Of a stretch of DNA of 44,098 bases, positions 1-24,859 are shown piece after piece. The stretch lies in the IMG/VR virus record IMGVR_UViG_2585427657_000002; one strand, given 5' to 3'. A program made the translations under genes and the position numbers. This DNA is from a virus (taxonomy: Duplodnaviria > Heunggongvirae > Uroviricota > Caudoviricetes). Numbering within the stretch: the stretch's first letter is position 1; each line of letters begins with the position of its first letter. Under the pieces are notes generated by a model. That model was not told the origin of the DNA. It did not search any database and saw only the letters and a list, made by a program, of their open reading frames with translations.

Positions 1-428
1 CTATGCTGTTTTGATATCTACGATAATCCAGTCTTTACCACGATCATCATTGTATCGGTCGGTCATTTTTCTGGATTTATGACCTAACAACTTTTGCGTA
101 TCCAGACCCTGTTCCCGATATAACCGTTCTGACAGAGATCGCTGCTCATGAAATGTGGGCGCAGTTCCTGGCTCCCATTTTATGCCACATTTTTCCCTGG
201 CCTTTTTAAAAGCCGTTGTAAGAGTATTTGCAGACACCTGGTCTCCTCTGTTTGCTTGAGAGGTAGTGTGACGGTAATGGACCAGATATTTACTAACAAC
301 AGCATCCCTGCACTGAGATATAACTTCACGAAGGGTAATATTCAGAGCATCGCATTTCAGGTTAAGCGGAATAGCAAGTTTTGAACCGGTTTTTTCCTGA
401 GTAATGTGCAACATGTCGTCCCAGATAT
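1..428 (-). pseudogene. int: lambda-type tyrosine integrase, C-terminal ~140 codons only
   Basis: ORF 1..414 (-) carries the catalytic C-terminus of lambda-family Int (...PTFHEQRSLSERLYREQ...LLGHKS...DRYNDDRGKDW); the frame runs upstream straight into the IS911 terminus at 429 and no N-terminal part is present elsewhere. Confidence 0.8.
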
Positions 429-458
429 TGAAGTGGTCAACAAAAACTGGCCACCGAG

Positions 459-1606
<1,148 letters not shown>

Positions 1607-1664
1607 TATGGCACCTGTGTTGTTCTGAGGTGAGCATATCACCTCTGTTCAGGTGGCCAAATTC

Positions 1665-2018
1665 TGGCCACACTCACGTGGGTGGACTGGTATAACAATC
1701 GACGATTGCTGGAAAGGCAGGGCCATACTCCTCCGGCAGAAGCAGAAAAAGCTTATTATGCTTCCATCGGAAACGATGATCTGGCAGCCTGAGTTCACAG
1801 ATAAAACACTCTCCAGGAAACCCGGGGCGGTTCACAGTAAACCACTTCTGGCCACACTCACGTGGGTGGACTGGTATAACAATCGACGATTGCTGGAAAG
1901 GCAGGGCCATACTCCTCCGGCAGAAGCAGAAAAAGCTTATTATGCTTCCATCGGAAACGATGATCTGGCAGCCTGAGTTCACAGATAAAACACTCTCCAG
2001 GAAACCCGGGGCGGTTCA
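1665..2018 (+). repeat. Two tandem copies of a 170-bp IS3-type right-end fragment, separated by 14 bp
   Basis: 1665..1834 and 1849..2018 are identical; each encodes a transposase C-terminus (...LTWVDWYNNRRLLERQGHTPPAEAEKAYYASIGNDDLAA) and ends in ...CCCGGGGCGGTTCA, an IS3-type terminus. Confidence 0.7.
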
Positions 2019-2043
2019 TACAGAGAGCAAAAGAGAAACGCCG

Positions 2044-4696: not shown

Positions 4697-5362
<666 letters not shown>

Positions 5363-5404
5363 GTCCTTATTATTACGCTCTGTACTGGAACCATCCATGC
5401 ACAA

Positions 5405-5474
5405 TGTGTATTTTTACTTGTATTCGCAAAGTACATATTGTATTTTTTTTATTCGTGTTTACTATGGAGGGCAT
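5405..5474. promoter_or_regulatory. Putative oR operators with divergent pRM / pR
   Basis: 70-bp AT-rich divergent intergenic region between cI and cro with repeated TGTA/TACA half-site-like motifs (e.g. CTTGTATTCGCAAAGTACA). Confidence 0.4.
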
Positions 5475-8070: not shown

Positions 8071-8108
8071 AGGCCTGCAGGTCAGGTAATCGCAGGCCTT
8101 TTTATTTG
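8071..8108 (+). terminator. Intrinsic terminator (tR2 position)
   Basis: Hairpin AGGCCTGC...GCAGGCCT followed by TTTTTATTT between ren and ninB. Confidence 0.6.
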
Positions 8109-10968: not shown

Positions 10969-12051
10969 TTAGAACTGATAAACCAGACCTACAGCGACGA
11001 TGTCGTCGGTATCAATACCAGCTGTTTTGGTAAACTTACTATCGTCAATTAAGTTGATTTTGTAATCAACAAAAGTGGACATGTTTTTATTAAAGTAGTA
11101 AGTAGCACCGACATCGACATACTTGACTAAGTCTCGGTCACCATGAACACCAAGGTCTTTACCTTTTGACTGAAGGTAAGCAACAGATGGACGCAGACCG
11201 AAGTCAAACTGATATTGTGCTACTGCTTCAAAGTTTTGTGCTTTGTTTGCAATATGGTTATTACCAAAAACGGTCATATTCTGAGTTTCAGAATATGTGG
11301 TAGCCAGATAGATATTGTTCGCATCATATTTCAGGCCTGCAGCCCATACTTCCGCATTTTTGCCGGAGGCATTGAATTTGCTCTTACCATAGGCGACCTG
11401 ACCGTCAGTGCGATCTGATTTAGCATAGGTTGCACCCACGCCGAATCCTTCATACTCATAAGTAGTGGAGAAACCGAAACCATCACCATTGGCTTCAGTT
11501 ACGTCAGTGCGGTCATTTTTACCCTGATACTGAGCAGCAAAGTTCAGGCCATCGACCAGACCAAAGAAGTCGTTGTTACGATAAGTTGCAACACCAGTAG
11601 TGCGACCAGTCATGAACACATCTGTTTGGGTCCAGGTATCACCACCGAATTCTGGCAGAACGTCAGTCCACGCACCGATGTCGTATGCTACACCGTAGTT
11701 ACGGCCGTAATCGATTGAGCCGTAATCACCAAATTTCAGGCCTGCAAATGCAAGACGGGTTTTGTCTTTGGAAGAACCTTGAGATTCAGCACGGTTGCCT
11801 TTGAATTCATATTCCCACTGACCGAAACCAGTCAGTTGATCGTTGATTTGGGTTTCACCTTTGAAGCCAAGACGGGCATAAGTAGTATCACCATCATCTG
11901 CATCATTAGAGGAGAAGTAGTGCTTGGCATTAACTTTCCCGTATAGATCCAGCTTGTTACTGTCTTTATTATAAATTTCAGCTGCCTGAGCAGACATCGC
12001 CATCAGTACTGATGCAGCTACAGCAGAAATTGCCACTGTTAATTTTTTCAT
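10969..12051 (-). CDS. nmpC: Outer-membrane general porin, phage-encoded OmpC-family (NmpC/Lc type)
   Basis: Signal peptide [23 protein letters not shown] then AEIYNKD...; C-terminal ...VAVGLVYQF; opposite orientation to phage late genes. Start taken as ATG 12051, not the longer ORF-track start. Confidence 0.9.
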
Positions 12052-12477
12052 TGTACGCCCTTTTTTTGAACTTTTATTAAAAAATGATGTCACTGCGCGA
12101 TAAATATTCATCTAATCAATGTGATTATTTCAAGATGTAAGTTTTAGTTTCTCATTTAATTTGTGAAGTAGATCTCTATTTTTATCTGAACCTTTTCTAT
12201 CTAATCCTATTCATGGCTCTTGTCTGAACAAAAATAAATCTATTAGCTAATTTATATTAATGGCACTTATTTATAAGTGCTCTATAATTCTTTAGCTTAA
12301 TTTAAACAAACTAAAAATAACATCGGAAATTATTAACTGGTTATTTGTTGAAGTTTTCTTATGCATTTGTGGTGGTGTTTTGAACACTCGGTGGCATTCT
12401 CACAAATATCATTTAGTAGTTTACGTACGTAAAAAATTGGTTATGCTGTTAAGAGTGGTTACTTCGTCACACAGCTT

Positions 12478-12510
12478 AAACCCGCCGTCGAGCGGGTTTT
12501 TCCATTTTTT
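12478..12510 (+). terminator. Intrinsic terminator upstream of the lysis cassette (candidate tR')
   Basis: Hairpin CCCGC-CGTCGA-GCGGG followed by TTTTTCCATTTTTT, about 130 bp before the holin start. Confidence 0.55.
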
Positions 12511-12639
12511 GAGTCTCGATATTAGCTGATAACCCAATACCTGAGTTATTCACTGACTCCGAATCTGTTACGTTTCTGCCTTTATTGCGATACGTAGTAT
12601 CCCCTTAATTTACACCCGCTTTGTCTGCGAGGTGGGGTT

Positions 12640-12855
12640 ATGAAATCCATGGATAAGTTAACAACGGGTGTCGCCTATGGTACCTCAGCAGGTAGTGCCG
12701 GGTACTGGTTTTTACAGTTGCTCGATAAAGTCACGCCCTCACAGTGGGCGGCAATAGGTGTGCTGGGTAGCCTGGTATTTGGCCTGCTGACGTACCTGAC
12801 AAACCTTTATTTCAAGATTAAAGAAGATAAGCGCAAGGCTGCGAGAGGTGAATAA
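12640..12855 (+). CDS. S: Holin, phage-21 pinholin type
   Basis: 71 aa, [71 protein letters not shown]; two TM segments, dual-start motif MKSM. Confidence 0.9.
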
Positions 12856-13352
12856 TGCCTCCATCATTACGAAAAGCCGTTGCTGCTGCTATTGGTGGCG
12901 GAGCAATTGCTATAGCATCAGTGTTAATCACTGGCCCAAGTGGTAACGATGGTCTGGAAGGTGTCAGCTACATACCATACAAAGATATTGTTGGTGTATG
13001 GACTGTATGTCACGGGCATACAGGAAAAGACATCATGCTCGGTAAAACGTATACCAAAGCAGAATGCAAAGCCCTCCTGAATAAAGACCTTGCCACGGTC
13101 GCCAGACAAATTAACCCGTACATCAAAGTCGATATACCGGAAACAATGCGCGGCGCTCTTTACTCATTCGTTTACAACGTGGGTGCTGGCAATTTCAGAA
13201 CATCGACGCTTCTTCGCAAAATAAACCAGGGCGATATCAAAGGCGCATGTGATCAGCTACGTCGCTGGACATATGCTGGCGGTAAGCAATGGAAAGGTCT
13301 CATGACTCGTCGTGAGATTGAGCGTGAAATCTGTTTGTGGGGTCAGCAATGA
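12855..13352 (+). CDS. R: SAR endolysin (lysozyme with signal-anchor-release N-terminus)
   Basis: 165 aa; N-terminal weakly hydrophobic SAR segment [20 protein letters not shown] followed by lysozyme domain; overlaps holin stop. Confidence 0.9.
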
Positions 13353-13810
13353 ACAGAGTAACCGCGATTATCTCCGCTCTGGTTATCTGCATCATCGTCT
13401 GCCTGTCATGGGCTGTTAATCATTACCGTGATAACGCCATTACCTACAAAGCCCAGCGCGACAAAAATGCCAGAGAACTGACGCTGGCGAACGCGGCAAT
13501 TACTGACATACAGATGCGTCAGCGTGATGTTGCTGCGCTCGATGCAAAATACACGAAGGAGTTAGCTGATGCGAAAGCTGAAAATGATGCTCTGCGTGAT
13601 GATGTTGCCGCTGGTCGTCGTCGGTTGCACATCAAAGCAGTCTGTCAGTCAGTGCGTGAAGCCACCACCGCCTCCGGCGTGGATAATGCAGCCTCCCCCC
13701 GACTGGCAGACACCGCTGAACGGGATTATTTCACCCTCAGAGAGAGGCTGATCACTATGCAAAAACAACTGGAAGGAACCCAGAAGTATATTAATGAGCA
13801 GTGCAGATAG
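13349..13810 (+). CDS. Rz: Rz i-spanin
   Basis: 153 aa, [38 protein letters not shown]...; N-terminal TM then coiled-coil; ATGA overlap with R. Confidence 0.9.
13569..13751 (+). CDS. Rz1: Rz1 o-spanin lipoprotein, embedded in the +1 frame of Rz
   Basis: [20 protein letters not shown]... lipobox, proline-rich mature part; entirely nested within Rz. Confidence 0.85.
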
Positions 13811-13841
13811 AGCTGCCCATATCGATGGGCAACTCATGCAA

Positions 13842-14135
13842 TTATTGTGAGCAATACACACGCGCTTCCAGCGGAGTATAAATGCCTAAAGTAATAAAAC
13901 CGAGCAATCCATTTACGAATGTTTGCTGGGTTTCTGTTTTAACAACATTTTCTGCACCACCACAAATTTTTGCTGCATCGACAGTTTTCTTCTGCCCAAT
14001 TCCCGAAACGAAGAAATGATGGGTGATGGTTTCCTTTGGTGTTACTGCTGTAGGTTTGTTTCCAACAGTAAACGTCTGTTGAGCACATCCTGTAATAAGC
14101 ATTGCCAGAGCGGCAGAAAACAACATTTTTTTCAT
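13842..14135 (-). CDS. bor: Bor lipoprotein (serum-resistance moron)
   Basis: 97 aa from MKKMLFSAALAMLITGCAQQTFTV... (lipobox LITGC). Confidence 0.9.
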   Translation of the reverse strand: MKKMLFSAALAMLITGCAQQTFTVGNKPTAVTPKETITHHFFVSGIGQKKTVDAAKICGGAENVVKTETQQTFVNGLLGFITLGIYTPLEARVYCSQ

Positions 14136-14615
14136 CTTATTATCCTGCATTGTTAAAAACGGCAGAATCCTATGTGACAACAATTAAACGATAGTTAAAT
14201 GGATTGATGAAAATTAAAACTACACAGGTGGGCTCAGACTATTGGAGGAAGTTGGGGACACTCAGAATCCTGTGGAATGAAATAAACCGGTCTATCCGTC
14301 CATTACCCTTTTAGCTGCGCTGTATCGTCGCCGTATTCCCGCATTAACCATGACCGTAGCCCGACGGGGAATTCCTTCTGCGTGAGTGTGCGGGAATAAT
14401 TAAAAACGATGCACACCGGGTTTTTACCGCGTTAATGATTCGCGGGTTTATCCCGGTGCGATGGTGGAAGAAACAGGAAGCTGTATTACAGAAAGTGCTA
14501 CTACTGTATCCCGATGCGATGTATGTAATGTGAGTCAGATAATGGCACAGGATGTGGTGATGTGGCAGTCTGGAACACAGGATATATTGTCAGAATAAGA
14601 CCCGTAGGAATAAAA

Positions 14616-14942
14616 ATGAAAAGACGCCTTTTACTACTTTTTCTGTTATCTGTCCTGGCAGTGGGATGCTCGCAGCAAAAAGCTGATGAGCCCCGGCAAT
14701 TAGTGACGGTGTATCCACGATATCCGGAATATGCTGCAGCAAATTATATCAAGGGGCTGGTTGAGGTTAAGTTCGATATTGGTGCTGATGGGACTGTGAC
14801 ACGGATCGTTTTTCTCCGCTCAGAGCCTCATAATTTGTTTCGTGATGAAGTGGTGAAGGCCATGGCGAAATGGCGATTTGAAAAGAATCGCCCCTGTCAG
14901 GGAGTGAAGAGACAATTTATCTTTACGCCGTCACGTCCTTGA
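14616..14942 (+). CDS. Lipoprotein with TonB C-terminal-like domain (moron)
   Basis: MKRRLLLLFLLSVLAVGCSQQ signal/lipobox, then VYPRYPEYAAANYIKGLVEVKFDIGADGTVTRIVFLRSEPHNLFRDEVVKAMAKWRFE, which matches the TonB_C pattern (YP..A...G.V.V.F.I..DG.V..I.......F...V..A...WR). Confidence 0.7.
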   Translation: MKRRLLLLFLLSVLAVGCSQQKADEPRQLVTVYPRYPEYAAANYIKGLVEVKFDIGADGTVTRIVFLRSEPHNLFRDEVVKAMAKWRFEKNRPCQGVKRQFIFTPSRP

Positions 14943-15064
14943 TGCTTCCAGGTAGAGAGGGGCTGGAAGCAGGAGAAAAATGAAAGAGCCAGCGGTTATA
15001 TTTTTGTCATGGCTGACGAGGAATGATGGAAGAAGGCGTTGTATGCCACACAACGCCTCACTGT

Positions 15065-15418
15065 TCATTTCTTCTTTTTCTCTGGTGGAACCCGATGAAT
15101 AAGAGTTGCACTGGTTTCCGATGAGATGGCGATATACTCGGGCAAAGTATGCTGGCAGTTTTCCAACTGGTCAAAAATACCTGCTCTCGTCTGTTGCAAT
15201 GCCTGCAGCATGCGGCGGCAATGCGCCTTGCTTTTACTAACCATCTTTCCTTCCTCTATCAGTCGCTGCGTGAACTCATCATGGAATACCAGGTAAATGC
15301 GGATGTTATCGGTTTTGGCTACGCAGCATAGTACAAAACGGACAGGTGCATCCCGGGACGGGGGAGGCGTCACATGTCCCTGTGATGGTTGTTCCGGGTA
15401 ATGTACTGTGTGGGGCAT
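15065..15418 (-). CDS. Hypothetical ORF (117 aa), coding status uncertain
   Basis: Open frame only; overlaps the small secretory ORF 15306..15557 and a + strand 60-aa ORF; identical copy at 19418..19771. Confidence 0.25.
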   Translation of the reverse strand: MPHTVHYPEQPSQGHVTPPPSRDAPVRFVLCCVAKTDNIRIYLVFHDEFTQRLIEEGKMVSKSKAHCRRMLQALQQTRAGIFDQLENCQHTLPEYIAISSETSATLIHRVPPEKKKK

Positions 15419-15557
15419 AAAAATGTCCGATAATTTTACTTTCTACCGCAGTTAGTTGATTCGTTGGTCCTGGTAGCACATTGGGCGAGGATTTAAATGC
15501 CAGGCAACTGAAGGATGATGTCGCAAGGGAGATAGCGAGAATATTTCTGATTTTCAT
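15306..15557 (-). CDS. Small predicted secreted Cys-rich protein (83 aa)
   Basis: MKIRNILAISLATSSFSCLA-FKSS signal peptide; mature part has four Cys (C..C.C..C near the C-terminus); identical copy at 19659..19910. Confidence 0.3.
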   Translation of the reverse strand: MKIRNILAISLATSSFSCLAFKSSPNVLPGPTNQLTAVESKIIGHFYAPHSTLPGTTITGTCDASPVPGCTCPFCTMLRSQNR

Positions 15558-15705
15558 TTGATGATGCCTCTGTGTGAAATGACGGTAAACGACGCACTTG
15601 TGCCGGCACATAATAGCAAGCACCATAATAGATCAGATTCGATTCTTGCTGTAAGTGATAATTATTCTCGTTTTCGGGTCCTTTCCGTCGATCCAACAGG
15701 TTACG

Positions 15706-15717
15706 GGGCGGCGACCT
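15706..15717 (+). other. cos: cosN cohesive-end site GGGCGGCGACCT (copy 1)
   Basis: ...ATCCAACAGGTTACG|GGGCGGCGACCT|CGCGG... matches the lambda right-end/left-end junction as recalled; cosB-like inverted GTCCGACATGAAAG / CATGTCGGGC elements lie between it and Nu1. Confidence 0.85.
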
Positions 15718-15893
15718 CGCGGTTTTTCACTATTTATGAAAATTTTTCAGGGAAAATCGTGTCGGTACTTCTCGAATATAACTTTTTGTTTTTTTTAATA
15801 TTGCATCCGTAAAGGTCCGACATGAAAGTGTCCGAAAATGCCTTTTTCTGGCGTTTTCATGTCGGGCCTTGTATTTGATAATGGGTTGTTTTC

Positions 15894-16158
15894 ATGAAGG
15901 TTAATAAAAAGAGGCTTGCCGAAATTTTCAACGTGGACCCGCGGACGATTGAACGCTGGCAGTCTCAGGGACTCCCTTGCGCCTCCAAAGGTAGTAAGGG
16001 CATTGAATCTGTATTTGATACTGCCATGGCAATTCAGTGGTATGCGCAGAGGGAAACTGATATCGAAAACGAAAAGCTCCGCAAAGAACTGGACGATTTG
16101 CGTGCGGCAGCGGAGTCAGATTTACAACCCGGCACCATTGACTATGAACGCTACCGGC
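15894..16158 (+). pseudogene. nu1: Terminase small subunit Nu1, 5' copy truncated after codon ~88 by a rearrangement junction
   Basis: [33 protein letters not shown]...TIDYERYR then sequence switches to the reverse complement of the porin upstream region. Confidence 0.7.
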
Positions 16159-16323
16159 ACATCTTGAAATAATCACATTGATTAGATGAATATTTATCGC
16201 GCAGTGACATCATTTTTTAATAAAAGTTCAAAAAAAGGGCGTACAATGAAAAAATTAACAGTGGCAATTTCTGCTGTAGCTGCATCAGTACTGATGGCGA
16301 TGTCTGCTCAGGCAGCTGAAATT
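16159..16323. repeat. Fold-back arm: reverse complement of 11974..12138 forming a perfect palindrome with 16327..16491
   Basis: 16159..16323 reads as the exact reverse complement of the porin 5' end and upstream region; symmetry centre at about 16325 (GCTGAAATT-ATA-AATTTCAGC). Confidence 0.85.
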
Positions 16324-16830
16324 ATAAATTTCAGCTGCCTGAGCAGACATCGCCATCAGTACTGATGCAGCTACAGCAGAAATTGCCACTGTTAATTTTT
16401 TCATTGTACGCCCTTTTTTTGAACTTTTATTAAAAAATGATGTCACTGCGCGATAAATATTCATCTAATCAATGTGATTATTTCAAGATGTAAGTTTTAG
16501 TTTCTCATTTAATTTGTGAAGTAGATCTCTATTTTTATCTGAACCTTTTCTATCTAATCCTATTCATGGCTCTTGTCTGAACAAAAATAAATCTATTAGC
16601 TAATTTATATTAATGGCACTTATTTATAAGTGCTCTATAATTCTTTAGCTTAATTTAAACAAACTAAAAATAACATCGGAAATTATTAACTGGTTATTTG
16701 TTGAAGTTTTCTTATGCATTTGTGGTGGTGTTTTGAACACTCGGTGGCATTCTCACAAATATCATTTAGTAGTTTACGTACGTAAAAAATTGGTTATGCT
16801 GTTAAGAGTGGTTACTTCGTCACACAGCTT

Positions 16831-16863
16831 AAACCCGCCGTCGAGCGGGTTTTTCCATTTTTT
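16831..16863 (+). terminator. Duplicate of terminator 12478..12510
   Basis: Identical sequence at offset +4353. Confidence 0.5.
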
Positions 16864-16992
16864 GAGTCTCGATATTAGCTGATAACCCAATACCTGAGTT
16901 ATTCACTGACTCCGAATCTGTTACGTTTCTGCCTTTATTGCGATACGTAGTATCCCCTTAATTTACACCCGCTTTGTCTGCGAGGTGGGGTT

Positions 16993-17208
16993 ATGAAATC
17001 CATGGATAAGTTAACAACGGGTGTCGCCTATGGTACCTCAGCAGGTAGTGCCGGGTACTGGTTTTTACAGTTGCTCGATAAAGTCACGCCCTCACAGTGG
17101 GCGGCAATAGGTGTGCTGGGTAGCCTGGTATTTGGCCTGCTGACGTACCTGACAAACCTTTATTTCAAGATTAAAGAAGATAAGCGCAAGGCTGCGAGAG
17201 GTGAATAA
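16993..17208 (+). CDS. S: Holin (duplicate copy)
   Basis: Identical to 12640..12855. Confidence 0.85.
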
Positions 17209-17705
17209 TGCCTCCATCATTACGAAAAGCCGTTGCTGCTGCTATTGGTGGCGGAGCAATTGCTATAGCATCAGTGTTAATCACTGGCCCAAGTGGTAAC
17301 GATGGTCTGGAAGGTGTCAGCTACATACCATACAAAGATATTGTTGGTGTATGGACTGTATGTCACGGGCATACAGGAAAAGACATCATGCTCGGTAAAA
17401 CGTATACCAAAGCAGAATGCAAAGCCCTCCTGAATAAAGACCTTGCCACGGTCGCCAGACAAATTAACCCGTACATCAAAGTCGATATACCGGAAACAAT
17501 GCGCGGCGCTCTTTACTCATTCGTTTACAACGTGGGTGCTGGCAATTTCAGAACATCGACGCTTCTTCGCAAAATAAACCAGGGCGATATCAAAGGCGCA
17601 TGTGATCAGCTACGTCGCTGGACATATGCTGGCGGTAAGCAATGGAAAGGTCTCATGACTCGTCGTGAGATTGAGCGTGAAATCTGTTTGTGGGGTCAGC
17701 AATGA
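17208..17705 (+). CDS. R: SAR endolysin (duplicate copy)
   Basis: Identical to 12855..13352. Confidence 0.85.
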
Positions 17706-18163
17706 ACAGAGTAACCGCGATTATCTCCGCTCTGGTTATCTGCATCATCGTCTGCCTGTCATGGGCTGTTAATCATTACCGTGATAACGCCATTACCTAC
17801 AAAGCCCAGCGCGACAAAAATGCCAGAGAACTGACGCTGGCGAACGCGGCAATTACTGACATACAGATGCGTCAGCGTGATGTTGCTGCGCTCGATGCAA
17901 AATACACGAAGGAGTTAGCTGATGCGAAAGCTGAAAATGATGCTCTGCGTGATGATGTTGCCGCTGGTCGTCGTCGGTTGCACATCAAAGCAGTCTGTCA
18001 GTCAGTGCGTGAAGCCACCACCGCCTCCGGCGTGGATAATGCAGCCTCCCCCCGACTGGCAGACACCGCTGAACGGGATTATTTCACCCTCAGAGAGAGG
18101 CTGATCACTATGCAAAAACAACTGGAAGGAACCCAGAAGTATATTAATGAGCAGTGCAGATAG
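17702..18163 (+). CDS. Rz: Rz i-spanin (duplicate copy)
   Basis: Identical to 13349..13810. Confidence 0.85.
17922..18104 (+). CDS. Rz1: Rz1 o-spanin (duplicate copy)
   Basis: Identical to 13569..13751. Confidence 0.8.
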
Positions 18164-18194
18164 AGCTGCCCATATCGATGGGCAACTCATGCAA

Positions 18195-18488
18195 TTATTG
18201 TGAGCAATACACACGCGCTTCCAGCGGAGTATAAATGCCTAAAGTAATAAAACCGAGCAATCCATTTACGAATGTTTGCTGGGTTTCTGTTTTAACAACA
18301 TTTTCTGCACCACCACAAATTTTTGCTGCATCGACAGTTTTCTTCTGCCCAATTCCCGAAACGAAGAAATGATGGGTGATGGTTTCCTTTGGTGTTACTG
18401 CTGTAGGTTTGTTTCCAACAGTAAACGTCTGTTGAGCACATCCTGTAATAAGCATTGCCAGAGCGGCAGAAAACAACATTTTTTTCAT
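18195..18488 (-). CDS. bor: Bor lipoprotein (duplicate copy)
   Basis: Identical to 13842..14135. Confidence 0.85.
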   Translation of the reverse strand: MKKMLFSAALAMLITGCAQQTFTVGNKPTAVTPKETITHHFFVSGIGQKKTVDAAKICGGAENVVKTETQQTFVNGLLGFITLGIYTPLEARVYCSQ

Positions 18489-18968
18489 CTTATTATCCTG
18501 CATTGTTAAAAACGGCAGAATCCTATGTGACAACAATTAAACGATAGTTAAATGGATTGATGAAAATTAAAACTACACAGGTGGGCTCAGACTATTGGAG
18601 GAAGTTGGGGACACTCAGAATCCTGTGGAATGAAATAAACCGGTCTATCCGTCCATTACCCTTTTAGCTGCGCTGTATCGTCGCCGTATTCCCGCATTAA
18701 CCATGACCGTAGCCCGACGGGGAATTCCTTCTGCGTGAGTGTGCGGGAATAATTAAAAACGATGCACACCGGGTTTTTACCGCGTTAATGATTCGCGGGT
18801 TTATCCCGGTGCGATGGTGGAAGAAACAGGAAGCTGTATTACAGAAAGTGCTACTACTGTATCCCGATGCGATGTATGTAATGTGAGTCAGATAATGGCA
18901 CAGGATGTGGTGATGTGGCAGTCTGGAACACAGGATATATTGTCAGAATAAGACCCGTAGGAATAAAA

Positions 18969-19295
18969 ATGAAAAGACGCCTTTTACTACTTTTTCTGTT
19001 ATCTGTCCTGGCAGTGGGATGCTCGCAGCAAAAAGCTGATGAGCCCCGGCAATTAGTGACGGTGTATCCACGATATCCGGAATATGCTGCAGCAAATTAT
19101 ATCAAGGGGCTGGTTGAGGTTAAGTTCGATATTGGTGCTGATGGGACTGTGACACGGATCGTTTTTCTCCGCTCAGAGCCTCATAATTTGTTTCGTGATG
19201 AAGTGGTGAAGGCCATGGCGAAATGGCGATTTGAAAAGAATCGCCCCTGTCAGGGAGTGAAGAGACAATTTATCTTTACGCCGTCACGTCCTTGA
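18969..19295 (+). CDS. TonB-C-like lipoprotein (duplicate copy)
   Basis: Identical to 14616..14942. Confidence 0.65.
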   Translation: MKRRLLLLFLLSVLAVGCSQQKADEPRQLVTVYPRYPEYAAANYIKGLVEVKFDIGADGTVTRIVFLRSEPHNLFRDEVVKAMAKWRFEKNRPCQGVKRQFIFTPSRP

Positions 19296-20058
19296 TGCTT
19301 CCAGGTAGAGAGGGGCTGGAAGCAGGAGAAAAATGAAAGAGCCAGCGGTTATATTTTTGTCATGGCTGACGAGGAATGATGGAAGAAGGCGTTGTATGCC
19401 ACACAACGCCTCACTGTTCATTTCTTCTTTTTCTCTGGTGGAACCCGATGAATAAGAGTTGCACTGGTTTCCGATGAGATGGCGATATACTCGGGCAAAG
19501 TATGCTGGCAGTTTTCCAACTGGTCAAAAATACCTGCTCTCGTCTGTTGCAATGCCTGCAGCATGCGGCGGCAATGCGCCTTGCTTTTACTAACCATCTT
19601 TCCTTCCTCTATCAGTCGCTGCGTGAACTCATCATGGAATACCAGGTAAATGCGGATGTTATCGGTTTTGGCTACGCAGCATAGTACAAAACGGACAGGT
19701 GCATCCCGGGACGGGGGAGGCGTCACATGTCCCTGTGATGGTTGTTCCGGGTAATGTACTGTGTGGGGCATAAAAATGTCCGATAATTTTACTTTCTACC
19801 GCAGTTAGTTGATTCGTTGGTCCTGGTAGCACATTGGGCGAGGATTTAAATGCCAGGCAACTGAAGGATGATGTCGCAAGGGAGATAGCGAGAATATTTC
19901 TGATTTTCATTTGATGATGCCTCTGTGTGAAATGACGGTAAACGACGCACTTGTGCCGGCACATAATAGCAAGCACCATAATAGATCAGATTCGATTCTT
20001 GCTGTAAGTGATAATTATTCTCGTTTTCGGGTCCTTTCCGTCGATCCAACAGGTTACG

Positions 20059-20070
20059 GGGCGGCGACCT
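20059..20070 (+). other. cos: cosN (copy 2)
   Basis: Identical to 15706..15717 with the same flanks. Confidence 0.8.
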
Positions 20071-20246
20071 CGCGGTTTTTCACTATTTATGAAAATTTTT
20101 CAGGGAAAATCGTGTCGGTACTTCTCGAATATAACTTTTTGTTTTTTTTAATATTGCATCCGTAAAGGTCCGACATGAAAGTGTCCGAAAATGCCTTTTT
20201 CTGGCGTTTTCATGTCGGGCCTTGTATTTGATAATGGGTTGTTTTC

Positions 20247-20795
20247 ATGAAGGTTAATAAAAAGAGGCTTGCCGAAATTTTCAACGTGGACCCGCGGACG
20301 ATTGAACGCTGGCAGTCTCAGGGACTCCCTTGCGCCTCCAAAGGTAGTAAGGGCATTGAATCTGTATTTGATACTGCCATGGCAATTCAGTGGTATGCGC
20401 AGAGGGAAACTGATATCGAAAACGAAAAGCTCCGCAAAGAACTGGACGATTTGCGTGCGGCAGCGGAGTCAGATTTACAACCCGGCACCATTGACTATGA
20501 ACGCTACCGGCTCACAAAAGCGCAGGCAGATGCGCAGGAACTGAAAAATGCCCGTGAAGACGGAGTAGTGCTGGAAACTGAACTGTTTACCTTCATTCTG
20601 CAACGTGTGGCACAGGAGATTTCGGGGATACTTGTGCGTGTGCCGTTGACATTACAGCGTAAATATCCGGACATTTCACCATCACACCTTGATGTGGTGA
20701 AAACTGAAATCGCGAAAGCCTCCAATGTTGCAGCTAAGGCCGGTGAAAACGTGGGCGGGTGGATCGATGATTTCAGACGCGCAGAAGGCAGCTAA
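20247..20795 (+). CDS. nu1: Terminase small subunit Nu1 (full length, in duplicated copy B)
   Basis: 182 aa; ...[54 protein letters not shown]...; winged-helix N-terminus. Confidence 0.85.
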
Positions 20796-21358
20796 TGCAG
20801 CCGGTGCGATAGCTACAGGGCTTTTATCTCTCATTATTCCTGTTCCACTGACGACAGTTCAGTGGGCCAATAAACATTATTACCTTCCTAAAGAGTCGTC
20901 TTATACCCCGGGGCGATGGGAAACACTGCCGTTTCAGGTTGGCATCATGAACTGTATGGGCAACGATCTGATTCGCACGGTTAACCTGATTAAATCTGCC
21001 CGTGTTGGTTATACAAAGATGTTGCTGGGAGTGGAGGCTTATTTTATTGAGCATAAATCACGCAACAGCCTTCTTTTTCAGCCCACGGACTCAGCTGCTG
21101 AAGATTTTATGAAATCTCATGTTGAGCCAACGATAAGGGATGTTCCTGCATTGCTGGAGCTGGCTCCATGGTTCGGAAGAAAACACCGCGATAATACGCT
21201 CACCCTGAAGCGTTTTTCCTCCGGTGTGGGGTTCTGGTGTCTGGGTGGTGCGGCAGCAAAAAACTACCGTGAAAAATCCGTGGATGTGGTCTGTTATGAC
21301 GAGCTTTCCTCGTTCGAACCGGATGTTGAAAAAGAGGGTTCGCCAACCCTGCTGGGGG
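20725..21358 (+). pseudogene. A: Terminase large subunit A, 5' fragment ending at a rearrangement junction
   Basis: Identical to the first ~210 codons of 22889..24859, then joins sequence equivalent to 15426 onward (...PTLLG then GTCCGATAATTTTAC...). Confidence 0.7.
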
Positions 21359-21638
21359 TCCGATAATTTTACTTTCTACCGCAGTTAGTTGATTCGTTGG
21401 TCCTGGTAGCACATTGGGCGAGGATTTAAATGCCAGGCAACTGAAGGATGATGTCGCAAGGGAGATAGCGAGAATATTTCTGATTTTCATTTGATGATGC
21501 CTCTGTGTGAAATGACGGTAAACGACGCACTTGTGCCGGCACATAATAGCAAGCACCATAATAGATCAGATTCGATTCTTGCTGTAAGTGATAATTATTC
21601 TCGTTTTCGGGTCCTTTCCGTCGATCCAACAGGTTACG

Positions 21639-21650
21639 GGGCGGCGACCT
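21639..21650 (+). other. cos: cosN (copy 3)
   Basis: Identical 12-mer and flanks. Confidence 0.8.
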
Positions 21651-21826
21651 CGCGGTTTTTCACTATTTATGAAAATTTTTCAGGGAAAATCGTGTCGGTA
21701 CTTCTCGAATATAACTTTTTGTTTTTTTTAATATTGCATCCGTAAAGGTCCGACATGAAAGTGTCCGAAAATGCCTTTTTCTGGCGTTTTCATGTCGGGC
21801 CTTGTATTTGATAATGGGTTGTTTTC

Positions 21827-22092
21827 ATGAAGGTTAATAAAAAGAGGCTTGCCGAAATTTTCAACGTGGACCCGCGGACGATTGAACGCTGGCAGTCTCA
21901 GGGACTCCCTTGCGCCTCCAAAGGTAGTAAGGGCATTGAATCTGTATTTGATACTGCCATGGCAATTCAGTGGTATGCGCAGAGGGAAACTGATATCGAA
22001 AACGAAAAGCTCCGCAAAGAACTGGACGATTTGCGTGCGGCAGCGGAGTCAGATTTACAACCCGGCACCATTGACTATGAACGCTACCGGCT
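21827..22092 (+). pseudogene. nu1: Nu1 5' fragment (third copy), truncated after codon ~88
   Basis: ...TIDYERYRL then joins sequence equivalent to 15576 onward. Confidence 0.7.
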
Positions 22093-22222
22093 GAAATGAC
22101 GGTAAACGACGCACTTGTGCCGGCACATAATAGCAAGCACCATAATAGATCAGATTCGATTCTTGCTGTAAGTGATAATTATTCTCGTTTTCGGGTCCTT
22201 TCCGTCGATCCAACAGGTTACG

Positions 22223-22234
22223 GGGCGGCGACCT
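22223..22234 (+). other. cos: cosN (copy 4, the one contiguous with the intact packaging/head operon)
   Basis: Identical 12-mer and flanks, about 190 bp upstream of the intact Nu1 at 22411. Confidence 0.85.
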
Positions 22235-22410
22235 CGCGGTTTTTCACTATTTATGAAAATTTTTCAGGGAAAATCGTGTCGGTACTTCTCGAATATAACT
22301 TTTTGTTTTTTTTAATATTGCATCCGTAAAGGTCCGACATGAAAGTGTCCGAAAATGCCTTTTTCTGGCGTTTTCATGTCGGGCCTTGTATTTGATAATG
22401 GGTTGTTTTC

Positions 22411-22959
22411 ATGAAGGTTAATAAAAAGAGGCTTGCCGAAATTTTCAACGTGGACCCGCGGACGATTGAACGCTGGCAGTCTCAGGGACTCCCTTGCGCC
22501 TCCAAAGGTAGTAAGGGCATTGAATCTGTATTTGATACTGCCATGGCAATTCAGTGGTATGCGCAGAGGGAAACTGATATCGAAAACGAAAAGCTCCGCA
22601 AAGAACTGGACGATTTGCGTGCGGCAGCGGAGTCAGATTTACAACCCGGCACCATTGACTATGAACGCTACCGGCTCACAAAAGCGCAGGCAGATGCGCA
22701 GGAACTGAAAAATGCCCGTGAAGACGGAGTAGTGCTGGAAACTGAACTGTTTACCTTCATTCTGCAACGTGTGGCACAGGAGATTTCGGGGATACTTGTG
22801 CGTGTGCCGTTGACATTACAGCGTAAATATCCGGACATTTCACCATCACACCTTGATGTGGTGAAAACTGAAATCGCGAAAGCCTCCAATGTTGCAGCTA
22901 AGGCCGGTGAAAACGTGGGCGGGTGGATCGATGATTTCAGACGCGCAGAAGGCAGCTAA
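22411..22959 (+). CDS. nu1: Terminase small subunit Nu1
   Basis: 182 aa, identical to 20247..20795; followed by overlapping terminase A. Confidence 0.9.
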
Positions 22960-24859
22960 TGCAGCCGGTGCGATAGCTACAGGGCTTTTATCTCTCATTA
23001 TTCCTGTTCCACTGACGACAGTTCAGTGGGCCAATAAACATTATTACCTTCCTAAAGAGTCGTCTTATACCCCGGGGCGATGGGAAACACTGCCGTTTCA
23101 GGTTGGCATCATGAACTGTATGGGCAACGATCTGATTCGCACGGTTAACCTGATTAAATCTGCCCGTGTTGGTTATACAAAGATGTTGCTGGGAGTGGAG
23201 GCTTATTTTATTGAGCATAAATCACGCAACAGCCTTCTTTTTCAGCCCACGGACTCAGCTGCTGAAGATTTTATGAAATCTCATGTTGAGCCAACGATAA
23301 GGGATGTTCCTGCATTGCTGGAGCTGGCTCCATGGTTCGGAAGAAAACACCGCGATAATACGCTCACCCTGAAGCGTTTTTCCTCCGGTGTGGGGTTCTG
23401 GTGTCTGGGTGGTGCGGCAGCAAAAAACTACCGTGAAAAATCCGTGGATGTGGTCTGTTATGACGAGCTTTCCTCGTTCGAACCGGATGTTGAAAAAGAG
23501 GGTTCGCCAACCCTGCTGGGGGATAAACGTATTGAGGGCTCTGTATGGCCAAAATCCATTCGCGGCTCGACGCCTAAAATCAAAGGCTCCTGCCAGATCG
23601 AAAAAGCCGCTAACGAGTCGGCACACTTCATGCGTTTTTATGTGCCCTGTCCGCACTGTGGGGAGGAGCAGTATCTGAAATTTGGCGATGATGCCTCGCC
23701 TTTCGGTCTTAAGTGGGAGAAGAATAAGCCAGAAAGTGTTTTCTACCTTTGTGAGCATCATGGCTGTGTGATCCATCAGTCTGAGCTTGACCAGAGTAAC
23801 GGGCGGTGGATCTGTGAAAACACGGGCATGTGGACCCGTGACGGCCTGATGTTTTTCAGCGCCCGGGGTGATGAAATTCCGCCGCCGCGCTCCATCACTT
23901 TCCATATCTGGACGGCGTACAGTCCGTTCACCACCTGGGTACAGATTGTCTATGACTGGCTGGATGCACTGAAAGATCCCAACGGCCTGAAAACCTTTGT
24001 GAACACCACGCTGGGCGAGACCTGGGAAGAGGCTGTGGGCGAAAAACTCGATCACCAGGTGCTGATGGATAAGGTTGTGCGTTACACGGCGGCGGTGCCT
24101 GCCCGGGTGGTTTATCTGACGGCGGGCATTGACTCGCAGCGAAACCGTTTTGAGATGTATGTCTGGGGATGGGCTCCGGGAGAGGAAGCCTTTCTGGTGG
24201 ATAAAATCATCATTATGGGGCGTCCCGATGAGGAAGAGACGCTGTTACGTGTGGATGCGGCGATCAACAAAAAATACCGCCATGCAGACGGAACCGAAAT
24301 GACCATTTCCCGTGTCTGCTGGGACATCGGGGGGATCGATGGCGAAATCGTTTATCAGAGGTCAAAAAAACACGGTGTTTTCCGGGTGCTGCCGGTAAAA
24401 GGCGCGTCTGTCTATGGCAAGCCGGTGATCACCATGCCGAAAACCCGCAATCAGCGGGGCGTTTATCTGTGTGAAGTGGGGACGGACACCGCAAAAGAAA
24501 TTCTCTATGCCCGTATGAAAGCCGAGCCCACGCCTGCGGATGAAGCCACGTCGTATGCCATCCGTTTTCCTGATGATCCGGAGATTTTTTCGCAGACAGA
24601 GGCGCAGCAACTGGTCGCGGAAGAGCTTGTGGAGAAGTGGGAAAAAGGAAAGATGCGTCTGCTGTGGGATAACAAAAAGCGGCGTAACGAAGCGCTGGAC
24701 TGCCTGGTGTATGCCTACGCGGCATTACGTGTGTCCGTGCAACGCTGGCAGCTTGATCTGGCTGTACTGGCAAAATCCCGGGAAGAAGAGACGACCCGGC
24801 CAACCCTTAAAGAACTGGCAGCGAAGCTGTCCGGAGGAGTGAATGGTTACAGTCGCTGA
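22889..24859 (+). CDS. A: Terminase large subunit A
   Basis: ...[32 protein letters not shown]...[14 protein letters not shown]...[19 protein letters not shown]... lambda gpA pattern; start could alternatively be the ATG at 22931 (MISDAQ...). Confidence 0.9.

What the first reader, a model, noticed from the sequence alone, without database searches (positions are those of the whole stretch)
11968..22234. Nested perfect segmental duplications producing four cos / Nu1-5' copies
11968..16158 (porin 5' end, lysis cassette, bor, lipoprotein, cos, first ~88 codons of Nu1) recurs identically at 16321 onward (offset +4353), continuing through a full Nu1 and ~630 bp of terminase A. A partial copy (equivalent to 15426..16159) follows at 21359..22092 and another (from 15576) at 22093 onward, leading into the only intact packaging-head operon. 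As a result cosN occurs four times (15706, 20059, 21639, 22223), the holin-to-lipoprotein block twice, and Nu1 four times (two complete, two truncated). The copies appear sequence-identical over kilobases, which means either a very recent amplification or an assembly artefact in a repeat-rich, cos-proximal region.
Basis: seen in the sequence. Interest (0 to 1): 0.6.

Follow-up and report, generated by a model that had tools for sequence, protein, structure and literature searches.

The report
Pasted-overlap assembly artefact at prophage cos
The four cos/Nu1 copies and the doubled lysis cassette are really in this sequence, but they are almost certainly overlapping assembly blocks of the E. coli Nissle 1917 icd prophage pasted end to end without trimming, not a biological amplification.

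Summary
Exact repeats are 11968-16158 = 16321-20511 (4191 bp), 19928-21358 = 22092-23522 (1431 bp) and 19778-20512 = 21358-22092 (735 bp), and cosN (GGGCGGCGACCT) occurs four times.

The window is the defective lambdoid prophage at icd of E. coli Nissle 1917. Every comparable complete genome has this region once, including 18 Nissle-lineage records, CFT073 and ATCC 25922. No junction occurs in any collection searched.

In reference coordinates the window is four collinear blocks. Each starts inside the previous block, they are ordered by start coordinate, and two of them end at the same nucleotide.

The same window carries independent assembly scars:
- A 5-bp CAGGT doubling is exactly the overlap of two alignment blocks against CFT073 at its IS site.
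- Six spurious bases in cI sit exactly where the 2002 CFT073 record has N or extra bases.
- Two identical IS-end scraps lie at 1662-2018.

Best explanation: a reference-guided pseudomolecule with untrimmed overlaps (about 0.8). A real amplification is not excluded (about 0.1). Interest is low.

The parts
11968..16158 (.). Tail of block 1 and copy 1 of the 4191-bp repeat. It runs from the porin 5' end through lysis cassette, bor/iss, tonB-like gene and cosN to Nu1 codons 1-88. It ends at reference position L002 17946 (breakpoint e).
16159..16323 (-). Inverted 165-bp arm, the reverse complement of 11974-12138 (porin start codon and upstream). With 16327-16491 it forms a perfect palindrome (3-nt loop at 16324-16326, -207.5 kcal/mol as ssDNA). 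Junction J1 (16158|16159) is blunt.
16321..21358 (.). Block 2, equal to L002 13756-18793. It holds the second porin 5' fragment, the second lysis cassette, bor/iss, cosN, a complete Nu1 and gpA codons 1-197. It ends at breakpoint f.
21358..22092 (.). Block 3, equal to L002 17213-17947 (735 bp), holding cosN and Nu1 codons 1-88. It lies wholly inside block 2 and ends at the same nucleotide (e, within 1 nt) as block 1. Junction J2 at 21358 shares 1 nt.
22092..23522 (.). Start of block 4 (L002 17363 onward). It repeats 19928-21358 and continues, 100% identical to the Nissle reference, to the window end. Junction J3 at 22092 shares 1 nt.
15706..15717 (+). cosN copy 1 (GGGCGGCGACCT)
20059..20070 (+). 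cosN copy 2
21639..21650 (+). cosN copy 3
22223..22234 (+). cosN copy 4, the one followed by the intact packaging-head operon
12640..13810 (+). Lysis cassette copy 1: P21-type holin 12640-12855, lysozyme 12855-13352, Rz 13349-13810
16993..18163 (+). Lysis cassette copy 2, identical to copy 1
13842..14135 (-). bor/iss lipoprotein copy 1. Copy 2 is at 18195-18488.
22411..24859 (+). The only intact Nu1 (22411-22959) plus gpA (22931-24859) pair that continues into portal and head genes
8078..8087 (.). CAGGTCAGGT, where Nissle has a single CAGGT. This is exactly the 5-bp overlap of the two maximal alignment blocks of IS-free Nissle sequence against CFT073 at its IS insertion site. It is an independent scar of untrimmed block pasting.
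5104..5213 (.). Six spurious single bases in the cI-like repressor gene. They sit at exactly the positions where the 2002 CFT073 record has N or extra bases, and are absent from newer CFT073 and Nissle assemblies.

Best explanation
The repeats are an assembly artefact. The window comes from a Nissle 1917-type genome record built as a pseudomolecule. Sequence blocks (contigs or their alignment segments) were ordered along the 2002 CFT073 reference and joined end to end without removing their overlaps.

In the cos region four overlapping blocks were pasted:
- block 1 ends at reference position e, inside Nu1;
- block 2 begins with a spurious fold-back (hairpin) end and runs a to f;
- block 3 is a small contained block, c to e;
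- block 4 runs from d onward.

Each overlap therefore appears as a perfect duplication. The real chromosome has one porin - lysis - bor - cos - Nu1 - A arrangement.

Shown: the block architecture, the absence of the structure elsewhere, and the other scars in the same window. Inferred: the pipeline, and the identity of the source record. The record is possibly the first EcN genome, CP007799.1, which is about 386 kb longer than later assemblies.
For: 1. Identity of the region. The window equals NZ_CP022686.1 (Nissle 1917) 4786142-4823368. There are no mismatches over 14.1 kb, 5.0 kb and 22.0 kb, apart from the rearrangements and 8 small indels.

2. Single copy elsewhere. In 267 genomes that cover at least 80% of the 12.1-kb query, the top matches span only 5,584 bp, which means one copy. 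These include nine Nissle records, CFT073 and ATCC 25922.

3. Junctions not found anywhere.
- No genome has junction J1 or the fold-back.
- The best matches to the J2/J3 query are three non-collinear pieces.
- The junction 40-mers give 0 hits in IMG/VR (J1-J3), GTDB genomes (J1, J3) and JGI metagenomes (J1, J2).
- The unrearranged 40-mer across e occurs once in each of 75 IMG/VR contigs.
- None of 8 junction or frameshift ORF products exists among about 15 billion proteins.

4. Block architecture. The four blocks are collinear with the reference. Their starts rise monotonically (<=3820, 13756, 17213, 17363), each lying inside the previous block. Blocks 1 and 3 end at the same nucleotide (17946/17947). 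Junctions are blunt or share 1 nt.

5. Independent pasting scar. CAGGTCAGGT at 8078 is exactly what results from pasting the two maximal alignment blocks of IS-free Nissle sequence against CFT073 at its IS site.

6. Reference-derived errors. Six extra bases in cI match positions of N or extra bases found only in NC_004431.1. Three newer CFT073 assemblies and Nissle lack them. Indel-type states follow CFT073 while SNP-type states follow Nissle.

7. A perfect 333-bp palindrome is a typical spurious contig end. From established knowledge of SbcCD, it would be unstable in wild-type E. coli.

8. Literature. CP007799.1 is 5,441,200 bp against 5,055,316 bp for CP022686.1 (PMC9049610, PMC9801561). It shows irp1/irp2 disrupted, whereas resequencing finds them intact (PMC8636617).
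Against: - No reads are available, so depth and junction-spanning reads could not be examined.
- The source record could not be identified.
- The breakpoints do not coincide with repeat or mosaic edges that would explain why contigs end there. This was checked against population mosaic edges, draft-contig ends in IMG/VR, and the CFT073 potB prophage and PICI.
- The old-CFT073 errors in the tail gene V region are not shared by the window, so reference carry-over is local rather than general.
- The twin IS-end scraps at 1662-2018 are not explained by simple overlap pasting.
Confidence: 0.8

Rival explanations
1. The structure is a genuine, very recent complex amplification in one Nissle-lineage isolate. 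A tandem-inversion-duplication-like event (forward - inverted - forward) arose by snap-back at the AATT-ATA-AATT site in the porin 5' end, and the inverted middle copy was later deleted down to 165 bp. Two nested head-to-tail duplications of 1581 bp (c to f) and 584 bp (d to e) then formed by end joining with little or no microhomology. The result is 4 cos sites, 2 lysis cassettes and 2 iss copies.
For: - The order a..f | c..e | d.. can be produced by two nested tandem duplications.
- Junctions with 0-1 nt of homology are compatible with RecA-independent joining.
- The fold-back centre lies at a short self-complementary AATT pair.
- Perfect identity of the copies fits a very recent event.
Against: - It needs at least 3-4 independent events in 10 kb, all too recent to have accumulated a single difference.
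- Two junctions with different partners share the same left breakpoint to within 1 nt.
- A perfect 165-bp-arm palindrome is retained.
- The structure is seen in none of 18 Nissle-lineage or 5,426 E. coli complete genomes.
- The same window shows unrelated assembly scars.
Confidence: 0.1
2. The structure is a long-read assembly artefact of another kind. Chimeric or fold-back reads (a missed hairpin adapter, or both strands read in succession), or untrimmed ends of a circular contig, were incorporated and the record was later rotated. No reference-guided pasting was involved.
For: - The palindrome followed by a 4.2-kb exact overlap looks like an uncircularised contig end carrying a fold-back read.
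- Kilobase-long exact repeats cannot be produced by a short-read graph alone (inference).
Against: - A polished long-read assembly would not carry six errors specific to the 2002 CFT073 record, nor the CAGGT overlap at the CFT073 IS site.
- Three further blocks with a shared end point are not expected from a single circularisation overlap.
Confidence: 0.06
3. The rearrangements came from phage DNA metabolism, such as terminase cutting at cos during in situ replication of the excision-defective prophage followed by rejoining.
For: - The prophage lacks xis and has a truncated int.
- All repeats surround cos.
Against: - No junction lies at cosN. The nearest breakpoint is 131 bp upstream, and the others are 281 bp upstream and 452 and 1299 bp downstream.
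- The structure is absent from all other assemblies of the strain.
Confidence: 0.02

Closest known systems
False segmental duplications caused by mis-assembly: untrimmed contig overlaps, negative gaps closed as sequence, uncircularised contig ends (general knowledge, e.g. Kelley and Salzberg 2010, cited from memory)
   Same: Copies are 100% identical. Blocks are collinear with the reference and each restarts upstream of the previous end. Junctions lack homology. The structure is absent from independent assemblies, and other pasting scars are present in the same record.
   Different: Read-level evidence, which is the usual proof, could not be obtained here. One block begins with a 165-bp hairpin.
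First E. coli Nissle 1917 genome record CP007799.1 (Reister et al. 2014), as described in PMC9049610, PMC9801561 and PMC8636617
   Same: It is a Nissle-lineage sequence. That record is about 386 kb longer than later assemblies and has reported gene disruptions that resequencing did not confirm. This matches the kind of errors seen in the window.
   Different: I could not show that the window comes from that record. It is not in any collection the tools can read.
Tandem inversion duplication (TID) of Salmonella and E. coli (Kugelberg, Roth and colleagues, from memory)
   Same: The arrangement is forward - inverted - forward, with a fold-back at a very short self-complementary sequence and a remodelled second junction.
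   Different: In TIDs the long palindromic junctions are removed by deletion under selection, whereas here a perfect 165-bp-arm palindrome persists. Two extra nested duplications reuse one breakpoint, and no other isolate shows the structure.
Lambda / phage 21-type cos - Nu1 - gpA packaging module
   Same: The cosN 12-mer, Nu1 (PF07471) and gpA (PF05876, PF20454) are present, with a P21-type holin upstream..
   Different: Normal phages and prophages carry one cos per genome unit, as do all relatives found. Four within 6.5 kb is not a known natural arrangement.

Membership tests
False duplication from untrimmed assembly overlaps | Copies are identical base for base | tested here: met
   4191, 1431 and 735 bp at 100% identity
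False duplication from untrimmed assembly overlaps | Blocks are collinear with a reference, each starts inside the previous block, and they are ordered by start | tested here: met
   Starts <=3820, 13756, 17213, 17363; ends 17946, 18793, 17947, 39369 in L002
False duplication from untrimmed assembly overlaps | Absent from independent assemblies of the same strain | tested here: met
   18 Nissle-lineage records and 5,426 genomes; none has the junctions
False duplication from untrimmed assembly overlaps | Other pasting or reference carry-over scars in the same record | tested here: met
   CAGGT overlap at the CFT073 IS site; six NC_004431-specific spurious bases
False duplication from untrimmed assembly overlaps | Single-copy read depth and no reads spanning the junctions | not testable with these tools
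   No reads available; source record not identified
Tandem inversion duplication (TID) | Forward - inverted - forward copies with a fold-back at a short quasi-palindrome | tested here: inconclusive
   Fold-back centre is AATT-ATA-AATT; the inverted copy is only 165 bp
Tandem inversion duplication (TID) | Long perfect palindromic junctions are not retained, because they are removed by deletion | tested here: not met
   Perfect 165-bp arms with a 3-nt loop, -207.5 kcal/mol
Simple microhomology or RecA-independent tandem duplication | Head-to-tail copies with one novel junction per event | tested here: met
   J2 and J3 are head-to-tail with 1 nt shared
Simple microhomology or RecA-independent tandem duplication | Independent events have independent breakpoints | tested here: not met
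   J1 and J3 share the left breakpoint 17946/17947 but have different partners
Lambda / 21-type cos packaging module | cosN 12-nt cohesive-end sequence next to Nu1 and gpA | tested here: met
   GGGCGGCGACCT four times; PF07471, PF05876 and PF20454
Lambda / 21-type cos packaging module | One cos per genome unit | tested here: not met
   Four in the window; one in every relative

The most novel reading that the evidence does not exclude
One Nissle 1917-lineage isolate really carries a very recent complex amplification of the cos-proximal end of its defective icd prophage. It would combine a fold-back (TID-like) duplication with two nested tandem duplications. The result is four cos sites, two lysis cassettes and two iss/bor copies, with a replication or repair hot spot at Nu1 codon 88 used twice.
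Probability: 0.1. Interest if true: 0.4.

Novelty: not a real feature. Interest (0 to 1): 0.08.

Why it matters
As biology it matters little. The real locus is an ordinary phage 21-like lysis - cos - terminase region of a known defective prophage.

It matters as a quality warning. Anyone who uses this record would be misled if they count iss/bor, holin or terminase genes, predict prophage completeness or size, design homology arms in Nissle 1917, or study cos sites. The window also shows a broken cI repressor, which is itself an artefact.

If the amplification were real, it would be a rare natural example of a retained long palindrome and a reused breakpoint in E. coli, and of multiple cos sites in one prophage.

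Tried and rejected
1. Breakpoints as repeat or mosaic edges, which would explain contig ends. This was not supported.
- Population mosaic edges in a 2.3-kb reference query lie at query positions 445-464, 535, 785-818, 1277-1285 and 1409. None lies at c (214), d (364), e (947) or f (1794).
- Ends of 75 IMG/VR loci show no clustering at a-f.
- The CFT073 potB prophage and the EcCICFT073-like island share only 73-94% identical stretches, with other edges.
- The potB region of Nissle has no prophage.
- The other two Nissle places that match this region could not be listed with the tools.

2. Identifying the source record. This did not succeed.
- Junction 40-mers gave 0 hits in IMG/VR, GTDB genomes and JGI metagenomes.
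- Three chimeric ORFs gave no encoding contigs.
- Eight unusual ORF products are not among 15 billion proteins.
- NZ_CP007799.1 is not in the collection.
- The Reister et al. paper is not held, and the variant table of PMC9049610 is not held.

3. Terminase-cut origin. Rejected, because no junction is at cosN.

4. A shared restriction site or motif at the junction ends. None was seen by eye.

5. One literature search was mis-specified and gave nothing useful.
Full report
OBSERVATION. All are 100% identical:
- 11968-16158 = 16321-20511 (4191 bp)
- 15425-16158 = 21358-22091
- 15575-16158 = 22092-22675
- 19778-20512 = 21358-22092 (735 bp)
- 19928-21358 = 22092-23522 (1431 bp)

The lambda-type cohesive-end sequence GGGCGGCGACCT occurs at 15706, 20059, 21639 and 22223, and nowhere else. 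About 0.2 matches are expected by chance.

Gene identities were confirmed by Pfam: Gram-negative porin, P21 holin, phage lysozyme, Rz, Bor, TonB_C, Nu1, and the gpA ATPase and nuclease domains. The RefSeq annotation of the identical Nissle sequence agrees. Nu1 is present four times, two copies cut after codon 88 and two complete. gpA is present once cut after codon 197 and once complete. The holin-to-bor block is present twice.

Bases 16159-16323 are the reverse complement of 11974-12138, which is the porin start codon and its upstream region. Together with 16327-16491 they form a perfect palindrome with 165-bp arms and a 3-nt loop. As single-stranded DNA it folds at -207.5 kcal/mol, z = -42.

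WHAT THE WINDOW IS. The window is the lambdoid prophage next to icd of E. coli Nissle 1917 (NZ_CP022686.1 4786142-4823368, locus L002 2143-39369). Its left end is a truncated integrase followed by ISEc52 and then sieB. That end is found in only 18 complete genomes, and the 15 listed are all Nissle 1917 or its derivatives. The window starts and ends on gene boundaries, as a predicted provirus would.

Against L002 the window aligns with no mismatch at all. The 6,871 extra bases are:
- the repeats (4353 + 2164 bp);
- a net 342-bp insertion at 1665-2019;
- twelve bases of small indels.

BLOCK STRUCTURE. In reference coordinates the region reads as follows:
- block 1 runs up to 17946;
- the inverted arm rc(13926..13762) follows;
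- block 2 is 13756-18793;
- block 3 is 17213-17947;
- block 4 is 17363 to the end.

All blocks are collinear with the reference. Each begins inside the previous block. They are in order of increasing start. Block 3 lies wholly within block 2. Blocks 1 and 3 end at the same nucleotide to within one base, although they are joined to different partners. Junction J1 is blunt, and J2 and J3 share one base. No junction is at cosN.

IS IT ANYWHERE ELSE? No.
- With the 12.1-kb region as query, 267 complete E. coli genomes cover at least 80% of it. The best matches span only 5,584 bp in four pieces, which means one copy. They include nine Nissle records, CFT073 and ATCC 25922. A record with the window's arrangement would have ranked first as one piece.
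- No genome holds J1 or the fold-back.
- The best matches to a J2/J3 query are three non-collinear pieces.
- Phage records also have one copy.
- The junction 40-mers are absent from IMG/VR, GTDB genomes and JGI metagenomes. The unrearranged 40-mer across breakpoint e occurs exactly once in each of 75 IMG/VR contigs.
- None of eight ORF products created by the junctions or frameshifts exists among about 15 billion proteins.

OTHER SCARS IN THE SAME WINDOW. These carry most of the weight of the argument.

(a) At 8078 the window has CAGGTCAGGT where Nissle has CAGGT. CFT073 carries an IS3-family element exactly there, flanked by a GGT target duplication. If IS-free Nissle sequence is aligned to CFT073, the left alignment block ends in ...CTGCAGGT. 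The right block begins at CAGGTAATCG, because the last two IS bases, CA, happen to match. Pasting the two blocks without trimming their 5-bp overlap gives exactly the window sequence. This is the same error class as the kilobase repeats, on a small scale.

(b) In the cI-like repressor gene the window has six extra single bases (5104-5213) relative to Nissle. The 2002 CFT073 record NC_004431.1 has the same length there, with N at three of those positions and an extra C at the other three. Three newer CFT073 assemblies, Nissle and all other records listed lack these bases. The T-run at 5443 also has the CFT073 length. At the two substitution differences, the window agrees with Nissle and the newer CFT073 assemblies. 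So indel states follow the old reference and base states follow the reads. That pattern is expected from a consensus built on a CFT073 backbone.

(c) Two identical 173-bp copies of the 3' end of that same IS family sit 11 bp apart at 1662-2018. They are absent from every Nissle record.

The carry-over is local. The old-CFT073 errors in the tail gene V region are not in the window.

BEST EXPLANATION. The record was assembled as a pseudomolecule. Blocks were ordered along CFT073 and joined without trimming overlaps, so each overlap became a perfect duplication. Block 2 brought a spurious fold-back end with it.

This is one process rather than three or four independent, mutation-free biological events. 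It explains the monotonic order, the contained block, the shared end point, the blunt joins and the small CAGGT doubling.

It also fits what is published about the first Nissle genome, CP007799.1. That record is 5,441,200 bp against 5,055,316 bp for CP022686.1 (PMC9049610, PMC9801561). It is described there as carrying four fim operons (PMC9049610). It shows irp1 and irp2 disrupted, whereas resequencing finds them intact (PMC8636617). I could not show that the window comes from that record, so this link is an inference.

RIVALS. A genuine amplification can be written as a tandem-inversion-duplication-like event plus two nested tandem duplications, and junctions with 0-1 nt of homology are compatible with RecA-independent joining. 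Several points count against it:
- It needs several events with no subsequent mutation.
- It needs a breakpoint reused to the nucleotide with different partners.
- It needs a long perfect palindrome to be retained. Established knowledge of SbcCD says such palindromes are unstable in wild-type E. coli.
- It must exist in one isolate only, and that isolate's record happens to carry unrelated assembly scars.

A purely long-read artefact (fold-back read plus uncircularised end) explains the first repeat. It does not explain the CFT073-specific errors or the CAGGT overlap. A terminase-related origin is rejected because no junction is at cosN.

WHAT DID NOT WORK. I could not explain why the blocks end where they do. 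The breakpoints are not common phage mosaic edges. They are not frequent contig ends in other draft assemblies. They are not edges of similarity to the CFT073 potB prophage or its neighbouring island. Nissle has no potB prophage. The two other Nissle places that match this region could not be retrieved. The twin IS-end scraps are not explained by simple overlap pasting.

VERDICT. The structure is most probably not a real feature of the chromosome (about 0.8). The underlying biology is an ordinary, already annotated phage 21-like lysis - cos - Nu1 - gpA region of a defective prophage. Interest is low. The residual novel reading is a real complex amplification, with a probability of about 0.1. 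Read depth, junction-spanning reads or PCR on the source strain would decide the question.

Noticed in passing
window 1662-2018: There are two identical 173-bp copies, 11 bp apart, of the 3' end of an IS3-family element. This is the element that sits between ren and ninB in CFT073 (L001 16415-16585). They are inserted between ISEc52 and sieB and are absent from all 18 Nissle-lineage complete genomes. Both scraps start at the same internal IS position. This is probably another assembly scar, but its exact origin is unexplained.
   Followed up: partly
window 4697-5404: The cI-like (LexA-family) repressor gene is broken into fragments by six single-base insertions. These coincide with N or extra bases in the 2002 CFT073 record. 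The gene is intact (231 aa) in Nissle CP022686.1 and in newer CFT073 assemblies, so the apparent pseudogene is an artefact.
   Followed up: yes
window 8078-8087: CAGGT is doubled at the empty site of the CFT073 IS. It equals the overlap of the two alignment blocks against CFT073.
   Followed up: yes
window 1-2040 (L002 2143-3830; compare L001 1-9211): The prophage is defective. The integrase is truncated by ISEc52, and the whole xis - exo - bet - gam - kil - cIII - ral segment present in the CFT073 counterpart is missing. This agrees with the report that EcN 'prophage 3' is not inducible (PMC5987069).
   Followed up: partly
L002 17444-17543 (window about 22173-22272); L004 6001-6322: There is a sharp mosaic edge about 30 bp to the right of cosN. 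Many E. coli prophages share the iss - tonB-like - cosN side at about 99.5% identity and then switch to a different nohD/terminase pair. Other prophages share only the side from about 30-50 bp left of cosN onward.
   Followed up: partly
L080 47528-47605 and 48263-48314 (CFT073 1387528-1388314): Two short cos-like matches (80% and 94% identity to the cosN region, in opposite orientations) lie at the end of a small integrase - primase - capsid island next to the potB prophage of CFT073. This would fit a cos-carrying satellite island.
   Followed up: no
L001 6158-6262, 12298-12424, 33468-33709 (NC_004431.1): The 2002 CFT073 RefSeq record still carries N bases and clustered indels. They produce annotated pseudogenes, including cI fragments and a frameshifted tail protein, that newer assemblies of the same strain do not show.
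   Followed up: partly
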